Origin: an uncultured Alphaproteobacteria bacterium
Lineage (GTDB): Bacteria; Pseudomonadota; Alphaproteobacteria; RF32; CAG-239
DNA length: 64,000 nt
Direction of reading: 5' to 3'
NCBI GenBank assembly: GCA_934254925.1
Contig: CAKQMD010000002.1
Coordinates: 17,841-81,840, forward strand
In this document: positions 12,656-23,197 of the stretch, piece by piece
Numbering within the stretch: the stretch's first letter is position 1
How the letters are laid out: each line of letters starts with the position of its first letter
Position numbers and translations under genes: made by a program
The notes under the pieces: generated by a model
Databases searched by the model: none
Told to the model about the DNA's origin: nothing
Seen by the model: only the letters and a program-made list of their open reading frames with translations

Positions 12656-13609
12656 TTAAATTTTTAATTTTTTGATGAATTCACCGATTTCCTTGTTGAT
12701 GCGGATACCGTCTTCAGGTTTGCTTTTGATCAGCCCGAACAGGCGCGGCGGAATTTTGGAAACGTCTATCGGTGCATAGGTTGCGGGGTTGGAGATCAAT
12801 ATTTTATAAGCGCCGTCGGCGTCTTTCTGTGCGGTTTTGAAATAGTTGGTCACCAAGCGTTCGGCGTCAATCGGGAAGTTTTTGGCGGCGATGGCGGCAA
12901 TGAACTTTTGCATCTTTTCCTTGCGTTTTTGGTGTTCTTCGTAAATCCTTTTTTCGATTCGGTGCTTGCGAGCCTTAGCTTTGCGCATATTGTAGGCGAG
13001 TTCGCAGCCTTCGATCTCAATTAAGACTTCGACATAAGAGATCAGGGCCAGCTGCAGGGTTTCATCAGTGGTTTTTTCGGCAAATTCGAGGATTTCCTCG
13101 TCTTTAGCTGAGGCGTTTAAGGATTTTAAGCGTTGAGCATGACAGGCGATCATGATATCCCAGCCGCTGAGGACGTCGGTGGTAAAAAATTTACCGATCT
13201 TGGGTTTGTAACGGAGATAAAGCATCTCAGGCTTTATCAGAAATTCCGGCATGTTTAGGTTGTTTTCTCGGCCCATTTTTCGTACGGTGTCGGAAAAATT
13301 GCGGTAAGCGTCGTAAAGGGCGCGCTCTTCCTCGTATAAATTGTTGACGACGGCGTTTTCTTCCTCCGAGAGAGATAGCTGTGTCGGAGAAGGTTTGTCG
13401 TTGTGCTTGGCCTCTTTCAGGTCTTCTTGGCGCTCTTCGATGTCTGCCAGTTCCTGATTGATAAATTCATTCAGCAGATTTTCAAAGTCGTCGTTGTCGG
13501 TGTCTCTTTTGATGTCTATCCCGCTGATTTCGTTATTGATGACTTCACTGTCAATGTCGCCGATAAGGTCTTCAATGTTGGGAGTGGAGAGTTTTGACGG
13601 TTCAGCCAT
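12656..13609 (-). CDS. Acidic hypothetical protein (317 aa)
   Basis: ATG with an AAGGAGG RBS, 11 nt downstream of the stop of gene 13621-13905. The N-terminus is D/E-rich. No recognised domain. Confidence 0.6.
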   Translation of the reverse strand: MAEPSKLSTPNIEDLIGDIDSEVINNEISGIDIKRDTDNDDFENLLNEFINQELADIEERQEDLKEAKHNDKPSPTQLSLSEEENAVVNNLYEEERALYDAYRNFSDTVRKMGRENNLNMPEFLIKPEMLYLRYKPKIGKFFTTDVLSGWDIMIACHAQRLKSLNASAKDEEILEFAEKTTDETLQLALISYVEVLIEIEGCELAYNMRKAKARKHRIEKRIYEEHQKRKEKMQKFIAAIAAKNFPIDAERLVTNYFKTAQKDADGAYKILISNPATYAPIDVSKIPPRLFGLIKSKPEDGIRINKEIGEFIKKLKI

Positions 13610-13620
13610 AAGCGCCTCCT

Positions 13621-13905
13621 TTAATGCAGTTGAACGGTTGAAAGCCTTTTGGCGGTTTGCGGATCATAGATGATAATTCGGTCCTCAAGTCCGCCGTCGC
13701 GTACCAGCAGGTAAAGCAAGCCGTCCTGCAGGCGGAATTGGTAAATGTTGCTGCCCAACGGTTCTCCGAGGCGACTGACTTCCGGCATGGGAGCCGACGG
13801 GGTTTGGGCACGGCGATACAGCGTGTGGAGAAGCAAAATGCTGCCGGCAATTAGTAAAAAAGTGATGACAAAGACCAGGTTTTTTATCAGTTTCAATTTG
13901 TCCAT
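13621..13905 (-). CDS. Small signal-anchored protein (94 aa), first gene of the VirD4 operon
   Basis: An N-terminal TM helix (LVFVITFLLIAGSILLL) is followed by a short beta-rich domain. The stop lies 11 nt before the next gene's RBS. It is divergent from rluD across a 71-bp intergenic region. Confidence 0.45.
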   Translation of the reverse strand: MDKLKLIKNLVFVITFLLIAGSILLLHTLYRRAQTPSAPMPEVSRLGEPLGSNIYQFRLQDGLLYLLVRDGGLEDRIIIYDPQTAKRLSTVQLH

Positions 13906-15029: not shown

Positions 15030-15911
15030 ATGGAAAATTCGCTTGGAATTAACGGACTTGACTTTTCTCCTGAAATTAACTTGGTTAGGTATCTGCAGTC
15101 GATTCGGAAATTTCCCATTTTGACTTTGGAAAAAGAATATGAACTGGCTGTGGAATATCAGAAAACAAAAAATCCGCAATTAGCTCATCAGTTGATTAAC
15201 TCGCACCTGCGTTTGGTGGTGAAGGTCGTCTCTAAGTATAAGGGATACGGTTTGCCGATTTCCGAAATGATTTCGGAAGGCAATATCGGTCTGCTTTATG
15301 CCGTGGAGAAATTCGATCCTGACAAGGGATTCCGCTTCTCGACCTACGCGATGTGGTGGATTAAAGCCTCGGTTCAAAAGTATATCCTTAATTCCTGGTC
15401 TTTGGTTAAGATCGGCACGACGGCCGCTCAGAAAAAGCTGTTCTTTAATCTGCGCAAGATTAAAAACAAGCTGAATTTGATGGATGACCGTGAGATGTCA
15501 AGCAAGATTATCAGCGGGATCGCCAAGTCTTTGGACGTCAGTGTCCAAGACGTGACGGAAATGAATACCCGGCTGAAGTCGCATGACGGATCCCTCAACG
15601 TGATGATCGACACCGGGTCGGACAACGGGAGCGAGTGGATGGATTTTATTTCAGACAACAAACCCAATCAGGAAGAAGTCCTGGCTTATTCCGAAACGAT
15701 GTCTTACCGTAAGCGGTTGTTCAATGAGGCTTTGGGCTGTTTGAACAAGCGTGAAAAGGATATTTTGTTCAAGCGGCGTCTGGTGGAAAAATCCGTGACA
15801 TTGGACGATTTGAGCAAAACTTATGCAATTTCTAAAGAAAGGGTACGGCAGATTGAATTGAATTCGATTAAGAAAATCAAGAAATCAATCGGTCTTAACA
15901 CTTTGAACTAG
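15030..15911 (+). CDS. rpoH: RNA polymerase sigma-32 heat-shock factor
   Basis: The ORF is 293 aa. It contains the RpoH box (AQKKLFFNLRK) and sigma-70 regions 2 and 4. Confidence 0.9.
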   Translation: MENSLGINGLDFSPEINLVRYLQSIRKFPILTLEKEYELAVEYQKTKNPQLAHQLINSHLRLVVKVVSKYKGYGLPISEMISEGNIGLLYAVEKFDPDKGFRFSTYAMWWIKASVQKYILNSWSLVKIGTTAAQKKLFFNLRKIKNKLNLMDDREMSSKIISGIAKSLDVSVQDVTEMNTRLKSHDGSLNVMIDTGSDNGSEWMDFISDNKPNQEEVLAYSETMSYRKRLFNEALGCLNKREKDILFKRRLVEKSVTLDDLSKTYAISKERVRQIELNSIKKIKKSIGLNTLN

Positions 15912-15935
15912 GTTTAATTACATATAAAAAAACGC

Positions 15936-15966
15936 CCGCTTGAAGAAAACGGGCGTTTTTTACGGT
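15936..15966. terminator. Bidirectional terminator between rpoH and the convergent membrane-protein gene
   Basis: AAAAAAACGCCCGCTTGAAGAAAACGGGCGTTTTTTAC. Confidence 0.6.
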
Positions 15967-16466
15967 TATTTTTCAGACGGAGGAGTGATCAGGTCGCTTC
16001 CCCAGCCTTCGGCCAGCTTTTCCAGGCGGTTGTCTATCGTTTTCAGGCGTTTTTGCGTGGAAAGCTTGTAGAGAAAAATAAACAAATTGGGAACCTCATA
16101 GTACACGATCAGGCCGATGGCGGCAGAGCCCAGCATAATGATGAGGTTGAAGATGTTGCCGAGAATGTAAAAGGCTTCATGGATGCTGAAGTTGCTCAAA
16201 ACGTTCATGAAATAGATGAAGACACCGGCCAGGTTGAAGCAGCCGACAACCAGAAGTTTGGATGAATTTTTGGGATCGGTGATCAGCAAGGTTATTGTCG
16301 GCAGCAGTCCGATCATCAGGATCAAAACGGCGGGCAAAGTCGTCAACATCAATAAAAACAAAGCAAAAAACAGCATTGTCTTTTGAGTGATTGACAATCG
16401 GCGAAAAGCCGAAGCCAGACGGTTGTTATCTCCTTTTTTTCTGATTTTCTTCATTTCAGCACCCAA
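15966..16466 (-). CDS. Integral membrane protein (3-4 TM), co-transcribed with the kinase-like gene
   Basis: 166 aa with hydrophobic helices. Its start overlaps the end of the upstream kinase-like gene (16451-16466). Confidence 0.5.
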   Translation of the reverse strand: MGAEMKKIRKKGDNNRLASAFRRLSITQKTMLFFALFLLMLTTLPAVLILMIGLLPTITLLITDPKNSSKLLVVGCFNLAGVFIYFMNVLSNFSIHEAFYILGNIFNLIIMLGSAAIGLIVYYEVPNLFIFLYKLSTQKRLKTIDNRLEKLAEGWGSDLITPPSEK

Positions 16467-18484
16467 TGGATAACGTTAAGGATGAACGAACTGATCATGG
16501 TTAAGACGGCCAGAACGCCGGCAAATTTCAGCGCCAATTCGGTGGCTTCTTCGTCAAGTTTGTCGCCGCCGGTGATAATTCTGGTTTTCTCATGCAGCAG
16601 AGATTTAGCCAGAGCAGCCGCTTCCGTGTATTCGGCGCGGTCTTTTTGCCTTGCTTCCTCATTTTCAAGAATATCGCAAAAGTCGATGATTTTACCGCTT
16701 TTGGCGCGCTGGATGATCTCACGTTCAAGATGTTTTTGATATTTGAGGTTATGGTAGCTTTTGATTACCGGTTTTGAGACGCTGATCAGCCACTGACAGA
16801 GATTGAAAAGCTGCAACGGGCCGTATTTGTTTTGCATGTTGGCGTAAAGGCGTATGATGGCGCTGATGCGAATGTCGTCACGGGCGGCGTTAAGATCGGT
16901 GATGATGCCGTCGATTTTTTTGCCCATTTTGCAACGCAGATAGGCGATGATGTTGCGGTCGTAAGGGGGCGTTTCTTGTTTTTTCAGGGCGTAAGCGTTG
17001 TCCAGCGCCTTGAGGACTTTGGGCGCGGAAGTGACAAAATCGTTGCCGATCAAGGGGCTGATACAGGGTAGGTCTTCGTCGAAGTCATACATAATGCGGT
17101 CGATGCCGTATCCCATGTCCTTGCGGTTGATGTAAATGCGAAATTCCGCGGCATTGGTCGGTGCACGAAGGTTTTCTTGTTCCTGATACCAGTTTTTGAT
17201 GATGTCGGATGAAAACAGTGCATGAAAGTCATCCAGGTTTTTGTGTTGTTTTTGTGCATAAAAGATGGCTTTGGGGGCTCCATTGGGAAAAATGCAGGTG
17301 TTGTTGTAGCGAATGGGCAGACTGGGGGCAATCAGGACACAGATCTGCGGTACAAGCATTTCCTCTTTTATTTCTTCAGATTTGATCAGGCGTTCAATTT
17401 TGCTGATGAGTTTGTCGTTGTCAAGAGAGCTTTTGGCCCATTCCAGGATCTTGCCGGACTTGATGATCTCCAGTGCTTCTTTTTGATTGGTCATTAAGGC
17501 GTAGGCAACGTTACGGCTGTTGTAGTATTTTTCTCCGTTGACGATGAGGGCTTTGGGCGAGCGCTCACTCGGCGCCGGATTGGAAAAGCTGTTGGCTTTT
17601 CCTTCCAGAAAGTTGTAAATTTGGATGTAATTCCAGCGTTGAGCCGGATCGTCGTTGACCATGCCTTTAAAAAGGTTAACATAAGCGTTGGGAATTCGCT
17701 CTTCATTCGTGAGGGTTAGATAGCTGCCTTTTTTGAGTTTTAAGCGCAAAACCTCCGGTAAGGAAAGCTCTTTGAGCAGTTCTTTGCGGGTAATCAGACA
17801 AAGGGCGGTTACGCCGACGGCGTAAATATCGTCCTGATCCGTGCCGCTGCCGCGGCCTTCGGGATCAGACATCAGGCTTTCCATGGTTTCAAAGGCCGGC
17901 GGCTGATGAAAAGCGGGGAAAGAGGCGGCGCAATCCCCGACGATGATTTCATGGCGCATACGATCGCGGTAAAAGAGGTTATCCAAGCGGATGGAACGGT
18001 GCGTGATGGAATAACCTTTCAAGGCCTCGGCGGCGGAGATCATTGAGATAATCGCCGATTTAAGTTTGTCGGCATTAGCGGCGTAGTCGATGTCGTTTTC
18101 TGTAAAATCTATCACTTTACCGCCGAGAGGCGTTTGATAGATCAGTGCTTGGTTGCGGGAATTTTGCTTGGGATAGTCGATGATGCCGTACTCGACCATT
18201 TTCATCAAATTCGGGTTGTCAATGGATTTCAGATAAGGCAAAATGGCGTTGCGCGGCGATGTCTCGTTGCTGCAGACAAGAGCGAAAAGCTCGCGTTTGG
18301 CGTCTACCTTGTCATTGACTTTATAGGCAACGGCGCCGTTCATGTCCAAATGCGGCAAAGGAACGTCAAAGTTGATCTCATAACGCTCTTTTAACAAAAA
18401 TAAAGAAGAATTGGCCGGGGTTTGGCTTTTTTTCGGCGTTTCCGGCTTTGGTGCTTCTTCTGTCTGTTTTTCTTCATCAGCCAT
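16451..18484 (-). CDS. Eukaryotic-like Ser/Thr protein kinase-fold protein (probable pseudokinase) with a C-terminal transmembrane anchor
   Basis: The N-terminal ~300 aa show a kinase catalytic-loop-like HRSIRLDNLFY (HRD changed to HRS), a DFG-like VGDCAAS, and a subdomain IX-like DIYAVGVTALCLITRK. No glycine-rich loop is evident. A long C-terminal region follows, ending in a terminal TM helix LAVLTMISSFILNVIHWVLK. Confidence 0.55.
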   Translation of the reverse strand: MADEEKQTEEAPKPETPKKSQTPANSSLFLLKERYEINFDVPLPHLDMNGAVAYKVNDKVDAKRELFALVCSNETSPRNAILPYLKSIDNPNLMKMVEYGIIDYPKQNSRNQALIYQTPLGGKVIDFTENDIDYAANADKLKSAIISMISAAEALKGYSITHRSIRLDNLFYRDRMRHEIIVGDCAASFPAFHQPPAFETMESLMSDPEGRGSGTDQDDIYAVGVTALCLITRKELLKELSLPEVLRLKLKKGSYLTLTNEERIPNAYVNLFKGMVNDDPAQRWNYIQIYNFLEGKANSFSNPAPSERSPKALIVNGEKYYNSRNVAYALMTNQKEALEIIKSGKILEWAKSSLDNDKLISKIERLIKSEEIKEEMLVPQICVLIAPSLPIRYNNTCIFPNGAPKAIFYAQKQHKNLDDFHALFSSDIIKNWYQEQENLRAPTNAAEFRIYINRKDMGYGIDRIMYDFDEDLPCISPLIGNDFVTSAPKVLKALDNAYALKKQETPPYDRNIIAYLRCKMGKKIDGIITDLNAARDDIRISAIIRLYANMQNKYGPLQLFNLCQWLISVSKPVIKSYHNLKYQKHLEREIIQRAKSGKIIDFCDILENEEARQKDRAEYTEAAALAKSLLHEKTRIITGGDKLDEEATELALKFAGVLAVLTMISSFILNVIHWVLK

Positions 18485-18645
18485 TTTTTAGAATTCTCTC
18501 TGTCCGTTGCTTTCTATTTTCAGCTTATCATAGTCAAATATCGTTAACAAAGCGCAAATATTTTGCCAAAAATTAAAAAATGGTGCAAAAGCGGGGAAAT
18601 GGTTGAGTTTAAAAAAAAATGACTTAGTATATATCAATGTGACAT

Positions 18646-19803
18646 ATGAGAGATGATTTTAAGATTATGGCGCAAGAAACGACTTATATCGACGAAGCTG
18701 TTCATCTTCAGGATTCTTTGGAAGACCTGAACGGTGCCGTTCGGCCTCAGCATCCGGAAACGGCTTTGCTGGCAGAGGCCGAAAAATATCATGCCGGCCG
18801 TGACGAACTGGAAAAGCCGGACGCGGCAACGGATCTCTTGTCTGCGACGGACGCTGCCATTGCGGAGCAGCGGAAAGAAGAGGCCGGGAAAGCTTTCTGG
18901 AAAGAGATTGACGTGAGCTTGGCCGATATTATTGAGCGGCTTTTTGAGAAGTCTTTGCGTCCGATCGTGCTGATCCGCGATGATCGGGTGGAATATATCA
19001 ATGACACGATGGCCAATGTTTTGCGGCTTTCCTCAAAGGGCGAGGCCTTGGGGGAAACTTTTCTTAAGTTTGTTGCAGAAGAGGATTGGAACCTGTTGGC
19101 GGAAAACATCGGCGCGATGCTGACGGAAAACCGCAGCGTGGCCGTGCGCCTGAAATCTGCCGGGGACAAGTTGTATCCGACGCATTTGGAGGCGCTTTAT
19201 ATTGCCGACAGTCAGCATTTTTCGTTTATTTTGATCGGTGACAGTATCCATGTGCGGGAAGAAGAACCTTCGCCGCGGGCGCCTGTCGGCGGCGTTGCCT
19301 GCCTGTTTGACCCCCAAACCGGGCTGCCGAACTTTTATTTGTTTGAGGATCGCCTGCAAATGGCGGTCAATGCCGAAAATTATAAGGATATTCGGTTGAA
19401 CAAGAATATTATTGCGGTGATGGGAATTTCCATTGACAATCTGGAAGATTTTCGGAAACTGGGGCTGGAAAACTTCGTGATGAAGCGTTTGGCGGCGACT
19501 TTGGCGGCGACCATTAAGAAAAGCTATACGGCGGCGGCCGGATTGAAAATTCAGTTCTGGGTAATGATCAATGACGTGAACACCCTGCATGACTTGGAAG
19601 TGGAAGTCGAAAAAATCAAGGCTGTTTTTGACGAAGGCGTCAGGGACAATTTTACCATTCATGCTTTGCATACCAGCATTGGAGTCAGCGTTTTTCCCAA
19701 TCCGGCCAAATCGGCCAAAAAGCTGATGCAGCAGGCCATTTACGCCACGGTGGCGGCGCAAAAGGCCGGTGGCAACAAGCTGATCTATTATCGTGATCAA
19801 TAA
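18646..19803 (+). CDS. PAS-domain protein with a degenerate GGDEF-like domain
   Basis: The C-terminal half reads DPQTGLPNFYLFEDRL...GISIDNLEDF...IGVSVFP, the layout of a diguanylate cyclase. No intact GG(D/E)EF signature is visible. Confidence 0.6.
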   Translation: MRDDFKIMAQETTYIDEAVHLQDSLEDLNGAVRPQHPETALLAEAEKYHAGRDELEKPDAATDLLSATDAAIAEQRKEEAGKAFWKEIDVSLADIIERLFEKSLRPIVLIRDDRVEYINDTMANVLRLSSKGEALGETFLKFVAEEDWNLLAENIGAMLTENRSVAVRLKSAGDKLYPTHLEALYIADSQHFSFILIGDSIHVREEEPSPRAPVGGVACLFDPQTGLPNFYLFEDRLQMAVNAENYKDIRLNKNIIAVMGISIDNLEDFRKLGLENFVMKRLAATLAATIKKSYTAAAGLKIQFWVMINDVNTLHDLEVEVEKIKAVFDEGVRDNFTIHALHTSIGVSVFPNPAKSAKKLMQQAIYATVAAQKAGGNKLIYYRDQ

Positions 19804-20528
19804 AATTCCTTAAATAGTTCGCCCTGCTGATCTTGTTCGAGTTCGGCGATGGCCTCTTTAACCAAAGGAACGGTGACAGCCCTTTTTAGTGCCAGAGAAA
19901 TGCGGTCGATGGCGGCTACCAGACGGCGGGCATAGGCAAAAGAACGTTGCATGTTGGCCAGGATATAAGAAATGATTTCCGGCGAGGGCAGAATTTGACG
20001 ATCGGCAAACAGTTTGATCAACAGAGCCGAAAGCAGCTCATCGTCCGGGGCTTTGATTTCCAGGGACGGAACGATGTTCAGGCGCGATCGTAAGTCGGGC
20101 AGGGTCAGCGGCAGTCTGGCCGGCGCTTCGTTTGAGGTAAACAGAATGTTTCCGCCTTCGTTGCGATACAGGTTATAAAGATGGAACATGGCCTCCTGGT
20201 CAAAAGGACGATGCAGGTTTTCAACGATCAGGCAACGGTTTTGGGCAAAAAGGTCGTGGATATCTTCCAAGCGCAGACGCGAAGCTTGAACCAGCGGCAG
20301 GCGATACGGATCATGGGTGATGCGGGCGACGTTTCCGGCAAAGACATGAGCCAGGTGGGTTTTGCCGCATCCTTCCGAGCCATAAATGCAAACGGCGAAA
20401 AACGGCCAGTCCGGCCAACGGTCTATCATTTGCACGGCTTCGACGTTGCAGGGCGCAACCAAGTAGTCGTCCTTGCCAAAGCAAGGATGATTGGGAAAAT
20501 CCAAAGCCAGTTGTCTTGTTTTGCTCAT
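19797..20528 (-). CDS. hdaA: DnaA-related replication regulator HdaA
   Basis: 243 aa. It starts MSKTRQLALDFP and carries an AAA+ Walker A GSEGCGKTHL. Confidence 0.8.
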   Translation of the reverse strand: MSKTRQLALDFPNHPCFGKDDYLVAPCNVEAVQMIDRWPDWPFFAVCIYGSEGCGKTHLAHVFAGNVARITHDPYRLPLVQASRLRLEDIHDLFAQNRCLIVENLHRPFDQEAMFHLYNLYRNEGGNILFTSNEAPARLPLTLPDLRSRLNIVPSLEIKAPDDELLSALLIKLFADRQILPSPEIISYILANMQRSFAYARRLVAAIDRISLALKRAVTVPLVKEAIAELEQDQQGELFKEFY

Positions 20529-20545
20529 GAGGGCCCCTTTGTTCT

Positions 20546-23197
20546 TCAGTCTTTATTTAAGACATCAAAGACGCGGGATGTCAAGTCGCCAAGGCTGAAA
20601 GGTTTGGTGATAAATTCAAAATCGGCGGCGTTTTTCAATTCCTGGCGGACCATTTCTTCCGAATATCCCGAGGCCAAAATGACCTTAACGGCGGGCAAAA
20701 GCTCTTTGACGCGGGCGATAAGTTCGGCTCCGCTGATTCCCGGCATAACCATATCGGTGATCAAAAGATCAAATTTTAGGTCTTGTTCCAGATGTTTCAA
20801 AGCGTTTTCTCCGGAGTTGCAGGCGACGACATCATAGCCTTTTTTCTTGAGGGCTCGGACAGCGAAGGTGCGGACGGAGTCTTCGTCTTCAACAAACAAA
20901 ATGCGGGTTTGCGAAGGATCTTTACCGTTTTTGGCCGGGGTGCGGTCGATGGTGGACAAGTTGAGGCCGAAAATGAGTTTTTCACTTACGGCCGTCGGCG
21001 CCTTGATTTTTTCCTGAACCGAGAGAATCGGCGTTCCGTCTTGGTTGGTGACGACTTCTTTTTCCGGATGCGGAGCGGCGGCTTCGTCAATATTGGAGTC
21101 AAAGCGCGGTAGATATACCGAAAAAGTGGTGCCGACGCCAACGGTCGAATCGACTTTTATAAAGCCTTCGGTCTGGCGAACGATGCCGTAAACCATGGCC
21201 AGGCCAAGTCCTGTTCCCGATCCGACAACGTTTTGTTTGGTGGAGAAGAATGGATCGAAAATGCGAATCAGGTTTTCCGCAGGAATGCCGCAGCCGGTAT
21301 CGGTAACGTCAATGACGACGAATTCTCCCGGTTTGACGACATCGTCGCCGAAGCGGTAGTTTTCACTCAAAACGTCTACTCGGGTTGAAATGGTTAAGGT
21401 GCCGCTGCCTTCCATGGCGTCTTTGGCGTTGACGGCCAGGTTTATGATGACCTGTGAAAACTGAACTGGATCGACTTTGATATATCCTAAATCTTTGCCG
21501 TGGCGGAATTTCAGCGTAATCTGTTCGCCCAGAATGCGCTTGAGCATATGGCTGAGTTCGGCAAAGTTTTCGGTAATATCGATTAATTTGGGCTTGAGCG
21601 GTTGTTTGCGGGAGAAGGCCAGCAGTTGGCGTACAAGGCCGGCGGCACGGTTGGCGTTTTGCTTGATTTGGATCAGGTCGGCAAAGGAGGGGTCGCCGAC
21701 GCCGTGACGTTGCAACAGCAAGTCACAGAAGCCGATCATGGCGGTCAGAAGATTGTTGAAGTCATGGGCGACGCCGCCGGCCAGTTGGCCGACTGCCTGC
21801 ATTTTTTGGGCTTGGGCAAATTGTTGTTCCAAAGACTTTTGGCGCGTGGCGTCAATCAGATACAAGACCATGCCGTCGATGTTAGAGGCGTCGGCGGCAT
21901 AAAATTTTTGCATGGGGCTGATGTAAATCGCTGCCACTTTTTCGCCGTTTTCTCCGCTGAGGTGGACTTCCAAATGTTGGGTAGTTTGACGTTCGGCGTT
22001 GATATTGGCAAAGTCGTTTTTCAAGGAAACGCTGTCTTCGGCCTTTATGCAATTAAAGATCGGACGGTTGAACAGTTTGTCGCGAGGCAGGCCCAGAAAA
22101 GTACAGGCCGAGGCATTGGCGTCTTTGATCAACCCTTCGGTGTCGGTAAAGACGATGCCGACGGGCGCGTTGTTGAACAGCCAGCTGATTTGGTCGCAGG
22201 AGTGATCCAGTTTCTGTTGCAGCTCCTTTTCCGAAGGAAGGCCGGTAATGACGACGCCGCGCGTTTTGAGTTCATCGTCTTCGCGGAAGCTCTGTTGAAA
22301 GACGTAGGCTTCAATGCTGTCGTGGGCGGCGTTTTTGAAATGAAGCTCCCCTTGCCATAAGGAGTGGCGCGGCGGCAAAGGTGTGTTGTTGCTTAACAGG
22401 CTGCCGAGGCTGCGGCCCAAGACTTCTTCGTGCGAGAGGCCGAGAAGTTCGGAGAAGGCGTTGTTGGCATATTCGAGGGTATAGTCTTTGGCGGCGATAT
22501 ACAGTCCGGCGGGGAGGTGATCCATAAAATCATGCAGGGATTTGTGCTCTTGGCGAAAGAGCTGTTCCATGTTCTTTTGTGCGGTGATGTTGTCTGCTGA
22601 CCAAAACAGGTATGTGTCCTTTTTGATGGCGCGGATTGAGAAGGGGCCTTCAAAAATGTCCGTCTTTTTTAGAAAAATCGGTTGTACCGAGATTTCAAAC
22701 CATTCTTCGTCGTTGAAGATTTTACTGTCGTCTCGGCGCAAGATCAGCGACAGTTGTACGGTTTCTCGACTAAGGTTGCTGCAGGCGGTCTGAAGCCGGT
22801 AAAAGGCGGCTTTGTTGGCGGAGGAATCGGCCAAATGTTCCTCCAGAAACCCCAGAATCGGCAGTCCTTTGAACAAATCTCGCGCCGGGTCGTTTTCCAA
22901 AACGGGGTGTCCGGCAGAATTGTCGATGCGCTTGATTTTGAAGTCGTTGCGGATGATCTCGTTGGCAAAACCGCCGTAGCTAATCGCCTGTTCTCCGGCA
23001 TCCAGCGTTTTGATCGTCAGGCTGAGGCAGATTGTGGTCATGATGACCGTGGCTCCTATCAGCGGCAGAAAATAGGCCGGATAAAACAAGAACAACATGA
23101 TGATCACCGTGAGCACAACCAGGGCATAGGCCAGGGAGACCAGGCGTTTTTGCAAAAGCTTATCCGGACGTTTATTGTTTTTTGAGCTGCATAACAT
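20546..23197 (-). CDS. Hybrid sensor histidine kinase (TM-PAS-HisKA-HATPase-REC), CckA-like
   Basis: An H-box VAHDFNNLLTAMIGFCDLL, an HATPase G-box DTGCGIP, and a C-terminal receiver domain (ILFVEDEDSVR...D...K) are present. Confidence 0.8.
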   Translation of the reverse strand: MLCSSKNNKRPDKLLQKRLVSLAYALVVLTVIIMLFLFYPAYFLPLIGATVIMTTICLSLTIKTLDAGEQAISYGGFANEIIRNDFKIKRIDNSAGHPVLENDPARDLFKGLPILGFLEEHLADSSANKAAFYRLQTACSNLSRETVQLSLILRRDDSKIFNDEEWFEISVQPIFLKKTDIFEGPFSIRAIKKDTYLFWSADNITAQKNMEQLFRQEHKSLHDFMDHLPAGLYIAAKDYTLEYANNAFSELLGLSHEEVLGRSLGSLLSNNTPLPPRHSLWQGELHFKNAAHDSIEAYVFQQSFREDDELKTRGVVITGLPSEKELQQKLDHSCDQISWLFNNAPVGIVFTDTEGLIKDANASACTFLGLPRDKLFNRPIFNCIKAEDSVSLKNDFANINAERQTTQHLEVHLSGENGEKVAAIYISPMQKFYAADASNIDGMVLYLIDATRQKSLEQQFAQAQKMQAVGQLAGGVAHDFNNLLTAMIGFCDLLLQRHGVGDPSFADLIQIKQNANRAAGLVRQLLAFSRKQPLKPKLIDITENFAELSHMLKRILGEQITLKFRHGKDLGYIKVDPVQFSQVIINLAVNAKDAMEGSGTLTISTRVDVLSENYRFGDDVVKPGEFVVIDVTDTGCGIPAENLIRIFDPFFSTKQNVVGSGTGLGLAMVYGIVRQTEGFIKVDSTVGVGTTFSVYLPRFDSNIDEAAAPHPEKEVVTNQDGTPILSVQEKIKAPTAVSEKLIFGLNLSTIDRTPAKNGKDPSQTRILFVEDEDSVRTFAVRALKKKGYDVVACNSGENALKHLEQDLKFDLLITDMVMPGISGAELIARVKELLPAVKVILASGYSEEMVRQELKNAADFEFITKPFSLGDLTSRVFDVLNKD

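What the first reader, a model, noticed from the sequence alone, without database searches (positions are those of the whole stretch)
15966..18484. Eukaryotic-like kinase-fold protein (HRD changed to HRS, likely pseudokinase) with a C-terminal tail anchor, co-transcribed with a polytopic membrane protein
The N-terminal ~300 aa carry recognisable Hanks-type subdomains: a catalytic-loop-like HRSIRLDNLFY, a DFG-like GDC, and a DxWSxG-like DIYAVGVTALCLI. The catalytic Asp is substituted and no glycine-rich loop is visible. A ~350-aa unknown region follows, ending in a single terminal TM helix. The gene overlaps a downstream 166-aa multi-TM protein. Tail-anchored kinase-like proteins are unusual in alphaproteobacteria and could act as a signalling scaffold or an effector. 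The operon converges on rpoH across a shared terminator.
Basis: partly seen in the sequence, partly recalled or inferred. Interest (0 to 1): 0.55.

Follow-up and report, generated by a model that had tools for sequence, protein, structure and literature searches.

The report
Membrane-anchored dead kinase with partner protein
This is a real two-gene unit that encodes a membrane-tethered, kinase-shaped protein lacking the residues needed for kinase chemistry, plus a small four-helix membrane partner. The pair belongs to a large family in Rhodospirillales-type and gut Alphaproteobacteria for which I found no description, and its function is unknown.

Summary
The ORF at 16451-18484(-) encodes a 677-aa protein. 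Residues about 28-300 are homologous to Hanks-type protein kinases: the family profile matches CDPK/CaMK structures at E 4e-12, and the AF2 model superposes on WNK3 and CaMKI at TM 0.74-0.77.

The β3 lysine is Ala, the HRD aspartate is Ser, and there is no glycine-rich loop. The catalytic-loop Asn and the DFG Asp (GDC) are kept. The same losses are seen across 146 family representatives, so this is a conserved pseudokinase and not a recent decay.

A confidently modelled about 300-aa helical domain follows. It has no Pfam, PDB-sequence or PDB/BFVD fold match. A stalk helix and a terminal TM helix (649-676) come after it.

The partner is 162 aa, not 166, with a predicted 4-TM topology. Its ATG overlaps the kinase-like gene's stop codon (ATGA). 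The partner start overlaps that stop in 79 of 79 related loci. The pair also stays together in Terasakiella, Magnetospira, Thalassobaculum and on Azospirillum chromids.

The family is common in these Alphaproteobacteria, with about 970 clusters (50% identity) at E<1e-30, and it shows none of the signs of an effector. It matches none of the seven described bacterial pseudokinase families.

The most likely function is a non-catalytic inner-membrane scaffold or sensor complex. That function is inferred and has not been tested.

The parts
16451..18484 (-). Gene for the 677-aa tail-anchored pseudokinase ('PK677')
   Evidence: ORF. An identical protein is in public MAGs. Full-length homologues of about 680 aa are listed.
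17585..18403 (-). Hanks-type kinase-fold domain, aa ~28-300
   Evidence: The family profile matches PDB kinases at E 4.3e-12. Foldseek gives TM 0.74-0.77 to WNK3 and CaMKI. Pfam Pkinase is sub-threshold at 24.2 bits.
18272..18286 (-). β3 strand FALVC (aa 67-71): the ATP-binding Lys position is Ala68
   Evidence: The HMM alignment to CDPK places A68 opposite the VAIK Lys. The position is Ala in 132 of 146 family representatives.
17978..18001 (-). Catalytic-loop remnant HRSIRLDN (aa 162-169): HRD Asp is Ser, loop Lys is Arg, Asn169 is kept
   Evidence: Read from the sequence. The family consensus is H-[RG]-[ASGN]-I-R-P-x-N. Asp occurs at this position in none of 146 and Asn169 in 144 of 146.
17930..17938 (-). 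DFG-equivalent GDC (aa 183-185)
   Evidence: Aligned to DFG. The family has G (144/146), then D (74) or E (65), then C (115). One divergent member has GPC.
16661..17563 (-). C-terminal helical domain of unknown fold, aa 308-608, with hallmark motif GYGxxRxxYxxxxxxPCxS (aa 458-476)
   Evidence: AF2 pLDDT is 88 when modelled alone. No PDB sequence hit. No fold match in PDB (best E 2.3) or BFVD (best E 0.35). No Pfam hit in 30 diverse members. Invariant residues are listed.
16571..16660 (-). Long juxtamembrane stalk helix, aa 609-638
   Evidence: DSSP on the AF2 model gives helix H609-638.
16457..16540 (-). Single C-terminal transmembrane helix (tail anchor), aa 649-676
   Evidence: This is the only Kyte-Doolittle segment above threshold. 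The AF2 model has a helix at 645-676. A hydrophobic C-terminus is kept in all aligned homologues.
16451..16454 (-). ATGA stop/start overlap between the two genes (translational coupling)
   Evidence: Read from the sequence. In 79 of 79 related loci the partner's first in-frame ATG overlaps the pseudokinase stop: 55 by 4 nt and 15 by 1 nt.
15966..16454 (-). Gene for the 162-aa small membrane partner ('TM162'): basic N-tail, about 4 TM helices, C-terminal amphipathic helix ending in a conserved ...EEWG motif
   Evidence: ORF. Hydropathy and charge analysis. Homologues lie directly downstream in 79 of 80 gut-MAG loci. They are also downstream in Terasakiella, Magnetospira and Thalassobaculum, a soil or marine MAG and Azospirillum (hhalign probability 99.9%).
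15926..15961 (.). Bidirectional intrinsic terminator shared with convergent rpoH (15030-15911 +)
   Evidence: A6-CGCCCG-11 nt loop-CGGGCG-T7, read. The + strand version is reported.
18485..18645 (.). 161-bp AT-rich divergent intergenic region upstream of the operon (presumed promoter region; no promoter demonstrated)
   Evidence: Sequence. The consensus scan gives only weak sigma-70-like matches.
18646..19803 (+). Divergent neighbour: PAS plus degenerate-GGDEF protein (385 aa). It is a clade-specific companion, and whether it belongs to the unit is uncertain.
   Evidence: Pfam GGDEF at 35.6 bits plus PAS_8. It is the divergent upstream neighbour in 79 of 80 gut-MAG loci but absent from that position in distant members.

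Best explanation
**What the genes encode**
- The two genes form a translationally coupled operon.
- The first product is a cytoplasm-facing protein tethered to the inner membrane by one C-terminal helix. It has a Hanks-type kinase fold without phosphotransfer residues, a roughly 300-aa helical domain with no match in any library searched, and a stalk helix.
- The second product is a small protein predicted to have four TM helices with both ends in the cytoplasm.

**Shown**
- The fold and the homology to kinases.
- The loss of the β3 Lys, the HRD Asp, the αC Glu and the Gly-rich loop across the whole family.
- The terminal TM segment.
- The strict, overlapping adjacency of the two genes across lineages whose proteins are only 21-27% identical, and after relocation to a chromid.

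**Inferred**
- The two proteins are made in fixed proportion and assemble through the tail anchor, stalk and partner helices into one inner-membrane complex.
- The kinase-like domain acts non-catalytically, as a scaffold, switch or ligand sensor.
- Its most conserved surface is the remodelled cleft and substrate groove: R78, H162, R166, N169, G-[D/E]-C, the Pro-rich activation segment PPGYDQP, E199 and the GRGxG loop. That surface would bind a partner protein or a phosphorylated ligand.
- The C-terminal domain would relay this binding event to or from the membrane partner.
- The cellular process served is unknown. The housekeeping synteny points to a core envelope or stress-related role and away from virulence or defence.
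For: **Kinase homology and fold**
-.

**Catalytic residue census in 146 representatives**
- β3 Lys position: Ala in 132.
- HRD Asp position: A/S/G/N, with Asp in none.
- Loop Lys position: Arg in 129.
- Asn169: kept in 144.
- DFG Asp position: D in 74 and E in 65.
- The αC Glu position is hydrophobic, and R78 is present in 141.
- No conserved compensating Lys occurs in β1 or β2 (K32 in 31 of 146, K52 in 43 of 146).
- One divergent member has GPC in place of DFG.

**Architecture**
- The same architecture is kept at 21-27% identity.

**Pairing of the two genes**
- 79 of 80 loci are adjacent.
- 79 of 79 have overlapping start and stop.
- The pair is retained in different contexts.

**Scale and novelty**
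- The C-domain has no known relatives in the libraries searched.
- None of the seven described bacterial pseudokinase families has this motif set and architecture (PMC12599244; bioRxiv 10.1101/2025.01.12.632604).
Against: - No experiment or complex prediction was available, so the physical interaction of the two proteins is inferred from gene linkage only.
- The two metal-binding positions (Asn169 and Asp/Glu184) and several invariant arginines are retained. Such retention is what one sees in 'pseudokinases' later found to bind nucleotide or catalyse other chemistry (WNK, SelO, SidJ precedents, from general knowledge and PMC12599244).
- The AF2 models rest on shallow alignments of 23 and 17 sequences.
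- Topology comes from a hydropathy scale, not a dedicated predictor.
- The fold libraries available (PDB and BFVD) exclude AlphaFold DB, so 'no known fold' for the C-domain is provisional.
Confidence: 0.65

Rival explanations
1. It is a cryptic enzyme. The kinase fold still binds a nucleotide in a non-canonical way and catalyses phosphorylation or another transfer (AMPylation or glutamylation type). The membrane partner would be its substrate, activator or docking site.
For: - Asn169 is kept in 144 of 146 representatives, and an acidic residue sits at the DFG position in 139 of 146.
- H162, R166, R78, R211 and R34 are conserved and could hold phosphates.
- WNK kinases lack the β3 Lys, and WNK3 is the best structural match.
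- The reviews note ATP-binding predictions for some bacterial pseudokinases lacking the Lys.
Against: - No conserved Lys anywhere in β1-β3 could substitute as it does in WNK.
- The Gly-rich loop is replaced by LDxPxAxAY.
- The DFG position drifts freely between D and E and is Pro in one member.
- The catalytic base is absent in all 146 representatives.
- The activation segment is a short, Pro-rich, invariant loop without conserved Ser or Thr.
Confidence: 0.2
2. The pair is a membrane-associated regulator of the heat-shock sigma factor RpoH or of the envelope-stress response. On this reading its conserved position tail-to-tail with rpoH reflects function.
For: - rpoH is the convergent neighbour in 58 of 80 gut-MAG loci.
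- It is also the neighbour in Terasakiella, Magnetospira, Thalassobaculum and a Methylocystaceae MAG, and is one gene removed in L084. This holds even though the pseudokinases are only about 25% identical.
- The two transcription units share a bidirectional terminator here.
Against: - Convergent genes are not co-transcribed.
- The whole block hisZ-purA-...-rpoH-rluD-DUF6476 is syntenic, so the linkage may be inertia.
- About 20 of 80 gut loci and the Azospirillum chromid copies lack rpoH nearby.
- No sequence feature resembles an anti-sigma factor.
Confidence: 0.07
3. It is a horizontally acquired eukaryote-like kinase that serves as a secreted effector or as part of an anti-phage defence system.
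For: - Weak hits to the kinase domains of the defence proteins MkoA (32 bits) and Mad6 (17.7-21 bits).
- The best sequence matches among solved structures are eukaryotic CDPK and CaMK.
Against: - The defence hits cover only the generic kinase domain and lie far below the family cut-offs (460 bits for MAD6).
- There is no phage hit.
- Plasmid hits are only 0.9-1.4 Mb Azospirillum chromids.
- The gene sits in deep vertical housekeeping synteny.
- The protein has a C-terminal membrane anchor and no secretion signal.
- Identity to eukaryotic kinases is only 13-20%.
Confidence: 0.02

Closest known systems
Hanks-type bacterial Ser/Thr kinases (e.g. M. tuberculosis PknB; Pfam PF00069)
   Same: Homologous bilobal kinase fold. 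PknB 6i2p is among the fold hits at TM 0.68. The catalytic-loop His and Asn, the DFG acidic residue, APE-like E199, the subdomain IX Asp (D219) and the subdomain XI Arg (R283) are all retained.
   Different: The β3 Lys, αC Glu, HRD Asp and Gly-rich loop are all lost. There is no extracytoplasmic sensor domain: the TM helix is the last element of the protein. A cytoplasmic domain with no match in the libraries searched sits between the kinase fold and the membrane.
Described bacterial pseudokinase families: ActPs1-3 (including the MviN/MurJ pseudokinase), GLW, CP1, DYD, DLHK (PMC12599244; bioRxiv 10.1101/2025.01.12.632604)
   Same: It is a conserved bacterial family with the Hanks fold and degraded catalytic motifs. 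[quoted passage not shown] Like MviN, a pseudokinase domain is attached to the membrane on the cytoplasmic side, presumably to recruit partners.
   Different: The motif set FAL-x-C / H-R-[AS]-I-R-P-x-N / G-[DE]-C matches none of them.
- GLW has GLW in place of HRD, poly-Leu in β3 and no DFG Asp.
- DLHK and CP1 lack TM segments and carry DNA2 or COG3899 domains.
- The ActPs and DYD families are from Actinobacteria or Firmicutes.
- The obligate small membrane partner and the C-domain are not described for any of them.
YabT of Bacillus subtilis (Hanks kinase anchored by a C-terminal TM helix; PMC6333020 abstract)
   Same: A cytoplasmic kinase-fold domain anchored by a C-terminal TM helix, with no extracellular sensor domain.
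   Different: YabT is an active, DNA-activated kinase. It has a short basic juxtamembrane region instead of a 300-aa helical domain, and I know of no dedicated membrane partner for it.
WNK kinases (eukaryotic 'with no lysine' kinases)
   Same: WNK3 gives the best structural superposition (TM 0.74-0.77). The β3 Lys is absent, and a Cys lies nearby on β3 (C71, present in 106 of 146 representatives).
   Different: WNKs keep the HRD Asp and the Gly-rich loop and supply the catalytic Lys from β2. No such conserved Lys exists here.

Membership tests
Protein kinase-like (Hanks/eukaryotic-type) superfamily | Bilobal kinase fold (N-lobe β-sheet plus αC; helical C-lobe) | tested here: met
   The AF2 model has pLDDT 85. 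Foldseek gives probability 1.0, TM 0.74-0.77 and rmsd 3.5 Å to WNK3 and CaMKI kinase domains.
Protein kinase-like (Hanks/eukaryotic-type) superfamily | Significant sequence-profile similarity to Pkinase | tested here: met
   The single sequence is below Pfam's gathering score (24.2 vs 31.7 bits). The family profile hits PDB kinases at E 4.3e-12, and 20 of 30 divergent members hit PF00069.
Catalytically competent Hanks-type kinase | β3 (VAIK) lysine | tested here: not met
   Ala68 here, and Ala in 132 of 146 family representatives.
Catalytically competent Hanks-type kinase | HRD catalytic aspartate | tested here: not met
   Ser164 here. The family has A, S, G or N at this position and Asp in none of 146.
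Catalytically competent Hanks-type kinase | DFG metal-binding aspartate | tested here: met
   Asp184 (GDC) here. The family has D in 74 and E in 65 of 146, and Pro in one divergent member.
Catalytically competent Hanks-type kinase | Glycine-rich loop GxGxxG and αC glutamate | tested here: not met
   The loop reads LDMNGAVAY (family LDxPxAxAY). The αC position that aligns with the Glu is hydrophobic, and R78 is conserved one turn earlier.
Pseudokinase (lacks at least one of β3 Lys, HRD Asp, DFG Asp; definition in PMC12599244) | At least one catalytic-triad residue missing within a kinase fold | tested here: met
   Two of the three are missing, here and family-wide.
Pseudokinase (functional sense) | No phosphotransfer activity and no ATP binding | not testable with these tools
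   This needs biochemistry or at least AF3 ligand modelling.
GLW bacterial pseudokinase family | GLW motif replacing HRD, poly-Leu/Trp in β3, DFG Asp lost | tested here: not met
   This protein has HRS (family HRA), FALVC and GDC. The GLW description comes from PMC12599244 and the bioRxiv atlas.
DLHK / CP1 bacterial pseudokinase families | No TM segment; linked DNA2 (DLHK) or COG3899 ATPase (CP1) domains | tested here: not met
   A terminal TM helix is present. No other Pfam domain occurs in 30 members.
WNK-type 'lysine-relocated' active kinases | Compensating catalytic Lys in β2 or the Gly loop, with the HRD Asp retained | tested here: not met
   No conserved Lys in aa 30-57, and the HRD Asp is absent.
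Tail-anchored membrane protein | Single TM helix within about 30 residues of the C-terminus, no N-terminal signal or TM, bulk of the protein cytoplasmic | tested here: met
   The only hydrophobic segment is aa 649-676 of 677. The AF2 model has a helix at 645-676. Actual membrane insertion was not tested.
Anti-phage defence kinases (MADS Mad6, Mokosh MkoA) | Full-length match to the family model, and defence-island context | tested here: not met
   NCBIfam MAD6 scores 21.4 bits against a 460-bit cut-off. PADLOC MkoA scores 32 bits over the kinase part only of a 1112-position model. The context is housekeeping genes.

The most novel reading that the evidence does not exclude
The pseudokinase and its 4-TM partner form a previously unrecognised, vertically inherited inner-membrane regulatory complex of Rhodospirillales-type Alphaproteobacteria. 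On this reading it would be an eighth conserved bacterial pseudokinase family, carrying a new cytoplasmic domain fold. Its remodelled active-site cleft would sense a metabolite or phospho-ligand, or perform non-kinase chemistry. The output might act on the heat-shock sigma factor RpoH, whose gene it has faced tail-to-tail across deep evolutionary distance.
Probability: 0.12. Interest if true: 0.8.

Novelty: new variant of a known kind. Interest (0 to 1): 0.5.

Why it matters
Bacterial pseudokinases are a recently recognised class, and almost none has been studied experimentally. The current atlas lists seven families, with none specific to Alphaproteobacteria and none with this architecture.

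This family is large and old. It sits in core-genome synteny, and it is always coupled to a dedicated small membrane protein, so it is likely to have a specific conserved cellular job.

It occurs in cultivable organisms (Azospirillum, Terasakiella, Magnetospira, Thalassobaculum), some of them genetically tractable. The function could therefore be tested directly by deletion, localisation and pull-down.

The roughly 300-aa C-terminal domain is confidently modelled but has no relative in Pfam, PDB or BFVD. It is a candidate new fold.

For the abundant but uncultured gut Alphaproteobacteria that carry this window, the pair is one of the few lineage-wide signalling-type proteins that has not been studied.

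Tried and rejected
**C-terminal domain identity**
- The profile against PDB sequences gave only a chance hit at E 0.84.
- Foldseek of a separate high-confidence model found nothing: best E 2.3 against PDB and 0.35 against BFVD.
- A Pfam scan of 30 divergent members found nothing besides Pkinase.

**Internal duplication of the C-domain**
- hhalign between thirds of the domain gave E 0.02-0.5, which is not significant.
- A thrice-recurring 'xxG[ED]xxxxSxxxxAxAL' hairpin-helix start is noted but unproven.

**Partner protein identity**
- No Pfam or NCBIfam family was found.
- The 360 homologues found (best 120 listed) are unnamed or called 'hypothetical'.

**Defence-system and mobile-element readings**
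- PADLOC and NCBIfam give only generic kinase-domain hits.
- The phage collection gave no hit.
- The plasmid collection gave only Azospirillum chromids.

**WNK-like rescue by a relocated lysine**
- Rejected from the residue census.

**Literature**
- Four searches found no paper on this family.
- Two recent surveys of bacterial pseudokinases do not describe it.
- Whether some members were binned into one of the 35 non-pseudokinase families of that atlas could not be checked.

**Most divergent locus (L085)**
- Its downstream 153-aa gene matches the partner profile only weakly (hhalign probability 23%).
- Universality of the partner at the family's outer edge is therefore not proven.

**Paralogues**
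- No paralogue exists elsewhere in the window.
Full report
**1. What is in the sequence**

The minus strand carries two overlapping ORFs: 16451-18484 (677 aa) and 15966-16466. The second ORF as listed starts at a TTG. Four codons further in there is an ATG (16454-16452) whose last two bases and the following A form the TGA stop of the upstream gene (…CTGAAATGAAGAAA…).

Public gene calls for the same genome (a metagenome-assembled genome, GCA_964311575.1) use this ATG and give a 162-aa product with a 4-nt overlap.

Downstream, an A6-CGCCCG-(11 nt)-CGGGCG-T7 hairpin at 15926-15961 separates the partner's stop codon (15966) from the stop of the convergent rpoH (15030-15911). It reads as an intrinsic terminator on both strands (the + strand version is).

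Upstream, a 161-bp AT-rich spacer separates the operon from a divergent PAS/GGDEF gene.

**2. The N-terminal third is a kinase fold, well beyond chance**

- Pfam Pkinase matches aa 85-289 at 24.2 bits (E 2.6e-5), below the 31.7-bit gathering score. Taken alone, that would be inconclusive.
- A profile built from 23 full-length homologues (alignment A1) hits solved protein kinases (CDPK, CaMK, BRSK2, MAPKAPK2 and others) at up to E 4.3e-12 over aa 55-330.
- 20 of 30 highly divergent family members hit PF00069 (best E 2.7e-11).
- The AlphaFold2 model of the whole protein is confident: mean pLDDT 85, pTM 0.79, with only aa 1-25 and 301-308 disordered.
- Foldseek against the PDB returns about 2,000 kinase domains at probability 1.0. 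These include WNK3 (TM 0.74-0.77, rmsd 3.5-3.6 Å), CaMKI (0.74), ULK1 (0.75) and M. tuberculosis PknB (0.68).

**3. It is a pseudokinase, and so is the whole family**

The HMM alignments and a 146-sequence family alignment give the following.

| Kinase element | This protein | Family (146 representatives) |
|---|---|---|
| β3 'VAIK' Lys | Ala68 | Ala in 132 |
| Gly-rich loop | LDMNGAVAY | LDxPxAxAY |
| αC Glu position | hydrophobic | hydrophobic; Arg78 one turn earlier in 141 |
| HRD Asp | Ser164 | A/S/G/N; Asp in none |
| Catalytic-loop Lys | Arg166 | Arg in 129 |
| Catalytic-loop Asn | Asn169 | kept in 144 |
| DFG | GDC | G (144) – D (74) or E (65) – C (115) |

- One divergent member has GPC at the DFG position.
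- No Lys is conserved in β1 or β2 that could substitute for the β3 Lys as in WNK kinases.
- The C-lobe landmarks are intact: APE-like E199, D219-x-Y-A-x-G, D278, R283-W284.
- The activation segment is a short, invariant, proline-rich loop (…PPGYDQP…), followed by a family-specific P-x-G-R-G-x-G motif.
- The pattern is strong conservation of a remodelled cleft and substrate groove, free drift at the metal-binding acidic position, and total absence of the catalytic base. I read this as a conserved non-catalytic binding surface, though residual nucleotide binding cannot be excluded.

**4. The rest of the protein**

- Residues 308-608 form an all-helical domain with two short β-hairpins. Modelled alone, it has pLDDT 88 and pTM 0.81.
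- It is the most conserved part of the protein, with 70% mean column identity in the gut clade.
- It carries the hallmark motif G458-Y-G-x-x-R463-x-x-Y466-…-P-C474-x-S476, which is invariant or nearly so down to 21% overall identity.
- It has no detectable relative in the libraries available:
  - no PDB sequence hit;
  - no PDB fold hit (best E 2.3);
  - no BFVD fold hit (best E 0.35);
  - no Pfam hit in 30 members.
- A test for internal duplication was negative.
- A long helix (609-638) leads to the only hydrophobic segment, aa 649-676, followed by a single Lys.
- With no N-terminal signal or TM segment, the protein is predicted to be tail-anchored with everything else in the cytoplasm.

**5. 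The partner**

- The 162-aa protein has a basic N-tail (9 K/R in 25 residues).
- It has three hydrophobic blocks. The first is 42 aa long with a central conserved G-x-x-P-T turn, so four TM helices are predicted.
- An amphipathic C-terminal helix ends in a conserved …L-x-E-E-W-G motif.
- The positive-inside rule puts both ends in the cytoplasm, the same side as the pseudokinase stalk.
- It has no Pfam or NCBIfam family. Its 360 detected homologues (best 120 listed) are unnamed or 'hypothetical'.

**6. Distribution and linkage**

- Close homologues (44-59% identity, about 680 aa) number more than 250 clusters. They come from animal- and human-gut Alphaproteobacteria MAGs, such as 'Proteobacteria bacterium CAG:495', Candidatus Scatocola and 'uncultured Azospirillum sp.'.
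- An exhaustive profile search of 1.84 billion representatives finds 970 clusters (50% identity) at E<1e-30. The best 150 are almost all full length.
- Named members include Terasakiella pusilla, Magnetospira thiophila, Thalassobaculum, Magnetovibrio and many Rhodospirillales or Rhodospirillaceae MAGs. They are annotated 'hypothetical protein', 'protein kinase family protein' or 'serine/threonine protein kinase'.
- Five Azospirillum species carry a copy on 0.9-1.4 Mb chromids.
- In 80 species-level genomes the partner gene lies directly downstream in 79; the 80th contig ends inside the gene.
- In all 79 the partner's first in-frame ATG overlaps the pseudokinase stop: 55 by 4 nt and 15 by 1 nt.
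- The pair persists in Terasakiella, Magnetospira, Thalassobaculum and a Methylocystaceae MAG, in the block hisZ-purA-[PK]-[TM]-<rpoH-<rluD.
- It persists in a divergent MAG where a TPR gene precedes it (partner homology probability 98.8%).
- It persists in Azospirillum ramasamyi in an unrelated context, between a sensor histidine kinase and a β-lactamase (partner homology probability 99.9%).
- At the outer edge of the family (L085) a 153-aa gene overlaps the stop in the same way, but it matches the partner profile only weakly.
- Linkage that survives relocation, together with the conserved start/stop overlap, is the main evidence that the two proteins work as one unit.

**7. How it most likely works**

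*Shown:* the kinase fold, the degraded catalytic apparatus, the terminal TM segment, the unmatched C-domain, and the obligate, translationally coupled membrane partner.

*Inferred:* the two proteins assemble in the inner membrane through the tail anchor or stalk and the partner's helices. The pseudokinase domain works as a scaffold, switch or ligand sensor through its conserved cleft and substrate groove.

The nearest functional analogy is the cytoplasmic pseudokinase domain of mycobacterial MviN/MurJ, which recruits a regulator (PMC12599244). Eukaryotic scaffolding pseudokinases are a second analogy.

I put about 0.65 on this reading and about 0.2 on a cryptic enzymatic activity. The second figure reflects the retained Asn169, the Asp/Glu184 and the several invariant Arg residues, which recall WNK, SelO and SidJ.

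A specific link to RpoH is suggested only by deeply conserved tail-to-tail adjacency (58 of 80 gut loci plus the distant chromosomal contexts). It is weakened by block synteny and by copies that lack rpoH nearby (about 0.07).

An effector or defence role is essentially excluded.

**8. Comparison with what is known**

The protein belongs to the Hanks-type kinase superfamily by homology and fold. By the usual definition it is a pseudokinase.

It does not fit any of the seven bacterial pseudokinase families in the current atlas and review: ActPs1-3, GLW, CP1, DYD and DLHK.

- GLW is the nearest in taxonomy and in having a C-terminal TM segment. However, it has GLW in place of HRD, poly-Leu in β3 and no DFG Asp.
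- That atlas was seeded with PF00069 matches. Many members of this family fall below Pfam's threshold, so it may simply have been missed. I could not check the atlas's supplementary assignments.
- YabT of B. subtilis shares the C-terminal anchoring but is an active kinase without the extra domain.

**9. Verdict**

Three corrections apply:

- the family is common, not unusual, in these Alphaproteobacteria;
- the effector idea fails;
- the partner is 162 aa.

The finding is a new variant of a known kind: a large, uncharacterised pseudokinase family with a domain that has no match in the libraries searched and a dedicated membrane partner. It is of moderate interest and is directly testable in cultured relatives.

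Noticed in passing
window 18646-19803 (+): This is a 385-aa PAS + GGDEF protein whose GGDEF signature appears degenerate (…AAAGLKIQFWV… where RxGGDEF is expected), so it is probably not an active diguanylate cyclase. It is the divergent upstream neighbour of the pseudokinase operon in 79 of 80 gut-MAG loci. In Terasakiella, Magnetospira and Thalassobaculum that position is taken by hisZ-purA, and in Azospirillum by a sensor histidine kinase.
   Followed up: partly
window 12656-13609 (-) and 13621-13905 (-): A 317-aa acidic protein with no Pfam or NCBIfam family sits next to a 94-aa DUF6476 protein. The two are conserved together beyond rluD in about 59-60 of 80 related loci. In distant relatives, a small unannotated gene followed by a JAB/Prok-JAB gene lies just beyond rluD in that position.
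   Followed up: no
window 19797-23197 (-): HdaA (243 aa) and a CckA-like hybrid histidine kinase (883 aa) lie immediately beyond the GGDEF gene in this genome. Neither is found there in the 80 related genomes: 0 and 3 weak hits respectively. The upstream synteny is therefore lineage-specific.
   Followed up: no
window 16661-17563 (-), aa 315-333, 398-415, 479-497 of the pseudokinase: There are three weakly similar 'xxG[ED]xxxxSxxxxAxAL' hairpin-plus-helix starts inside the C-terminal domain, which hints at an ancient triplication. The hhalign E-values of 0.02-0.5 are not significant.
   Followed up: partly
L087 (Azospirillum ramasamyi plasmid NZ_CP029830.1, 730436-744331): Azospirillum species carry the pseudokinase + partner pair on 0.9-1.4 Mb chromids in a context unrelated to rpoH. 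Whether a second chromosomal copy next to rpoH exists was not checked.
   Followed up: partly
window 16451-18484 (-), Cys71, Cys185, Cys382, Cys474, Cys518: Several cysteines in this cytoplasmic protein are strongly conserved. C71 lies on β3 (106 of 146), C185 at DFG+1 (115 of 146), and C474 is invariant in all alignments. A redox or metal site is conceivable, but I could not examine it without model coordinates.
   Followed up: no
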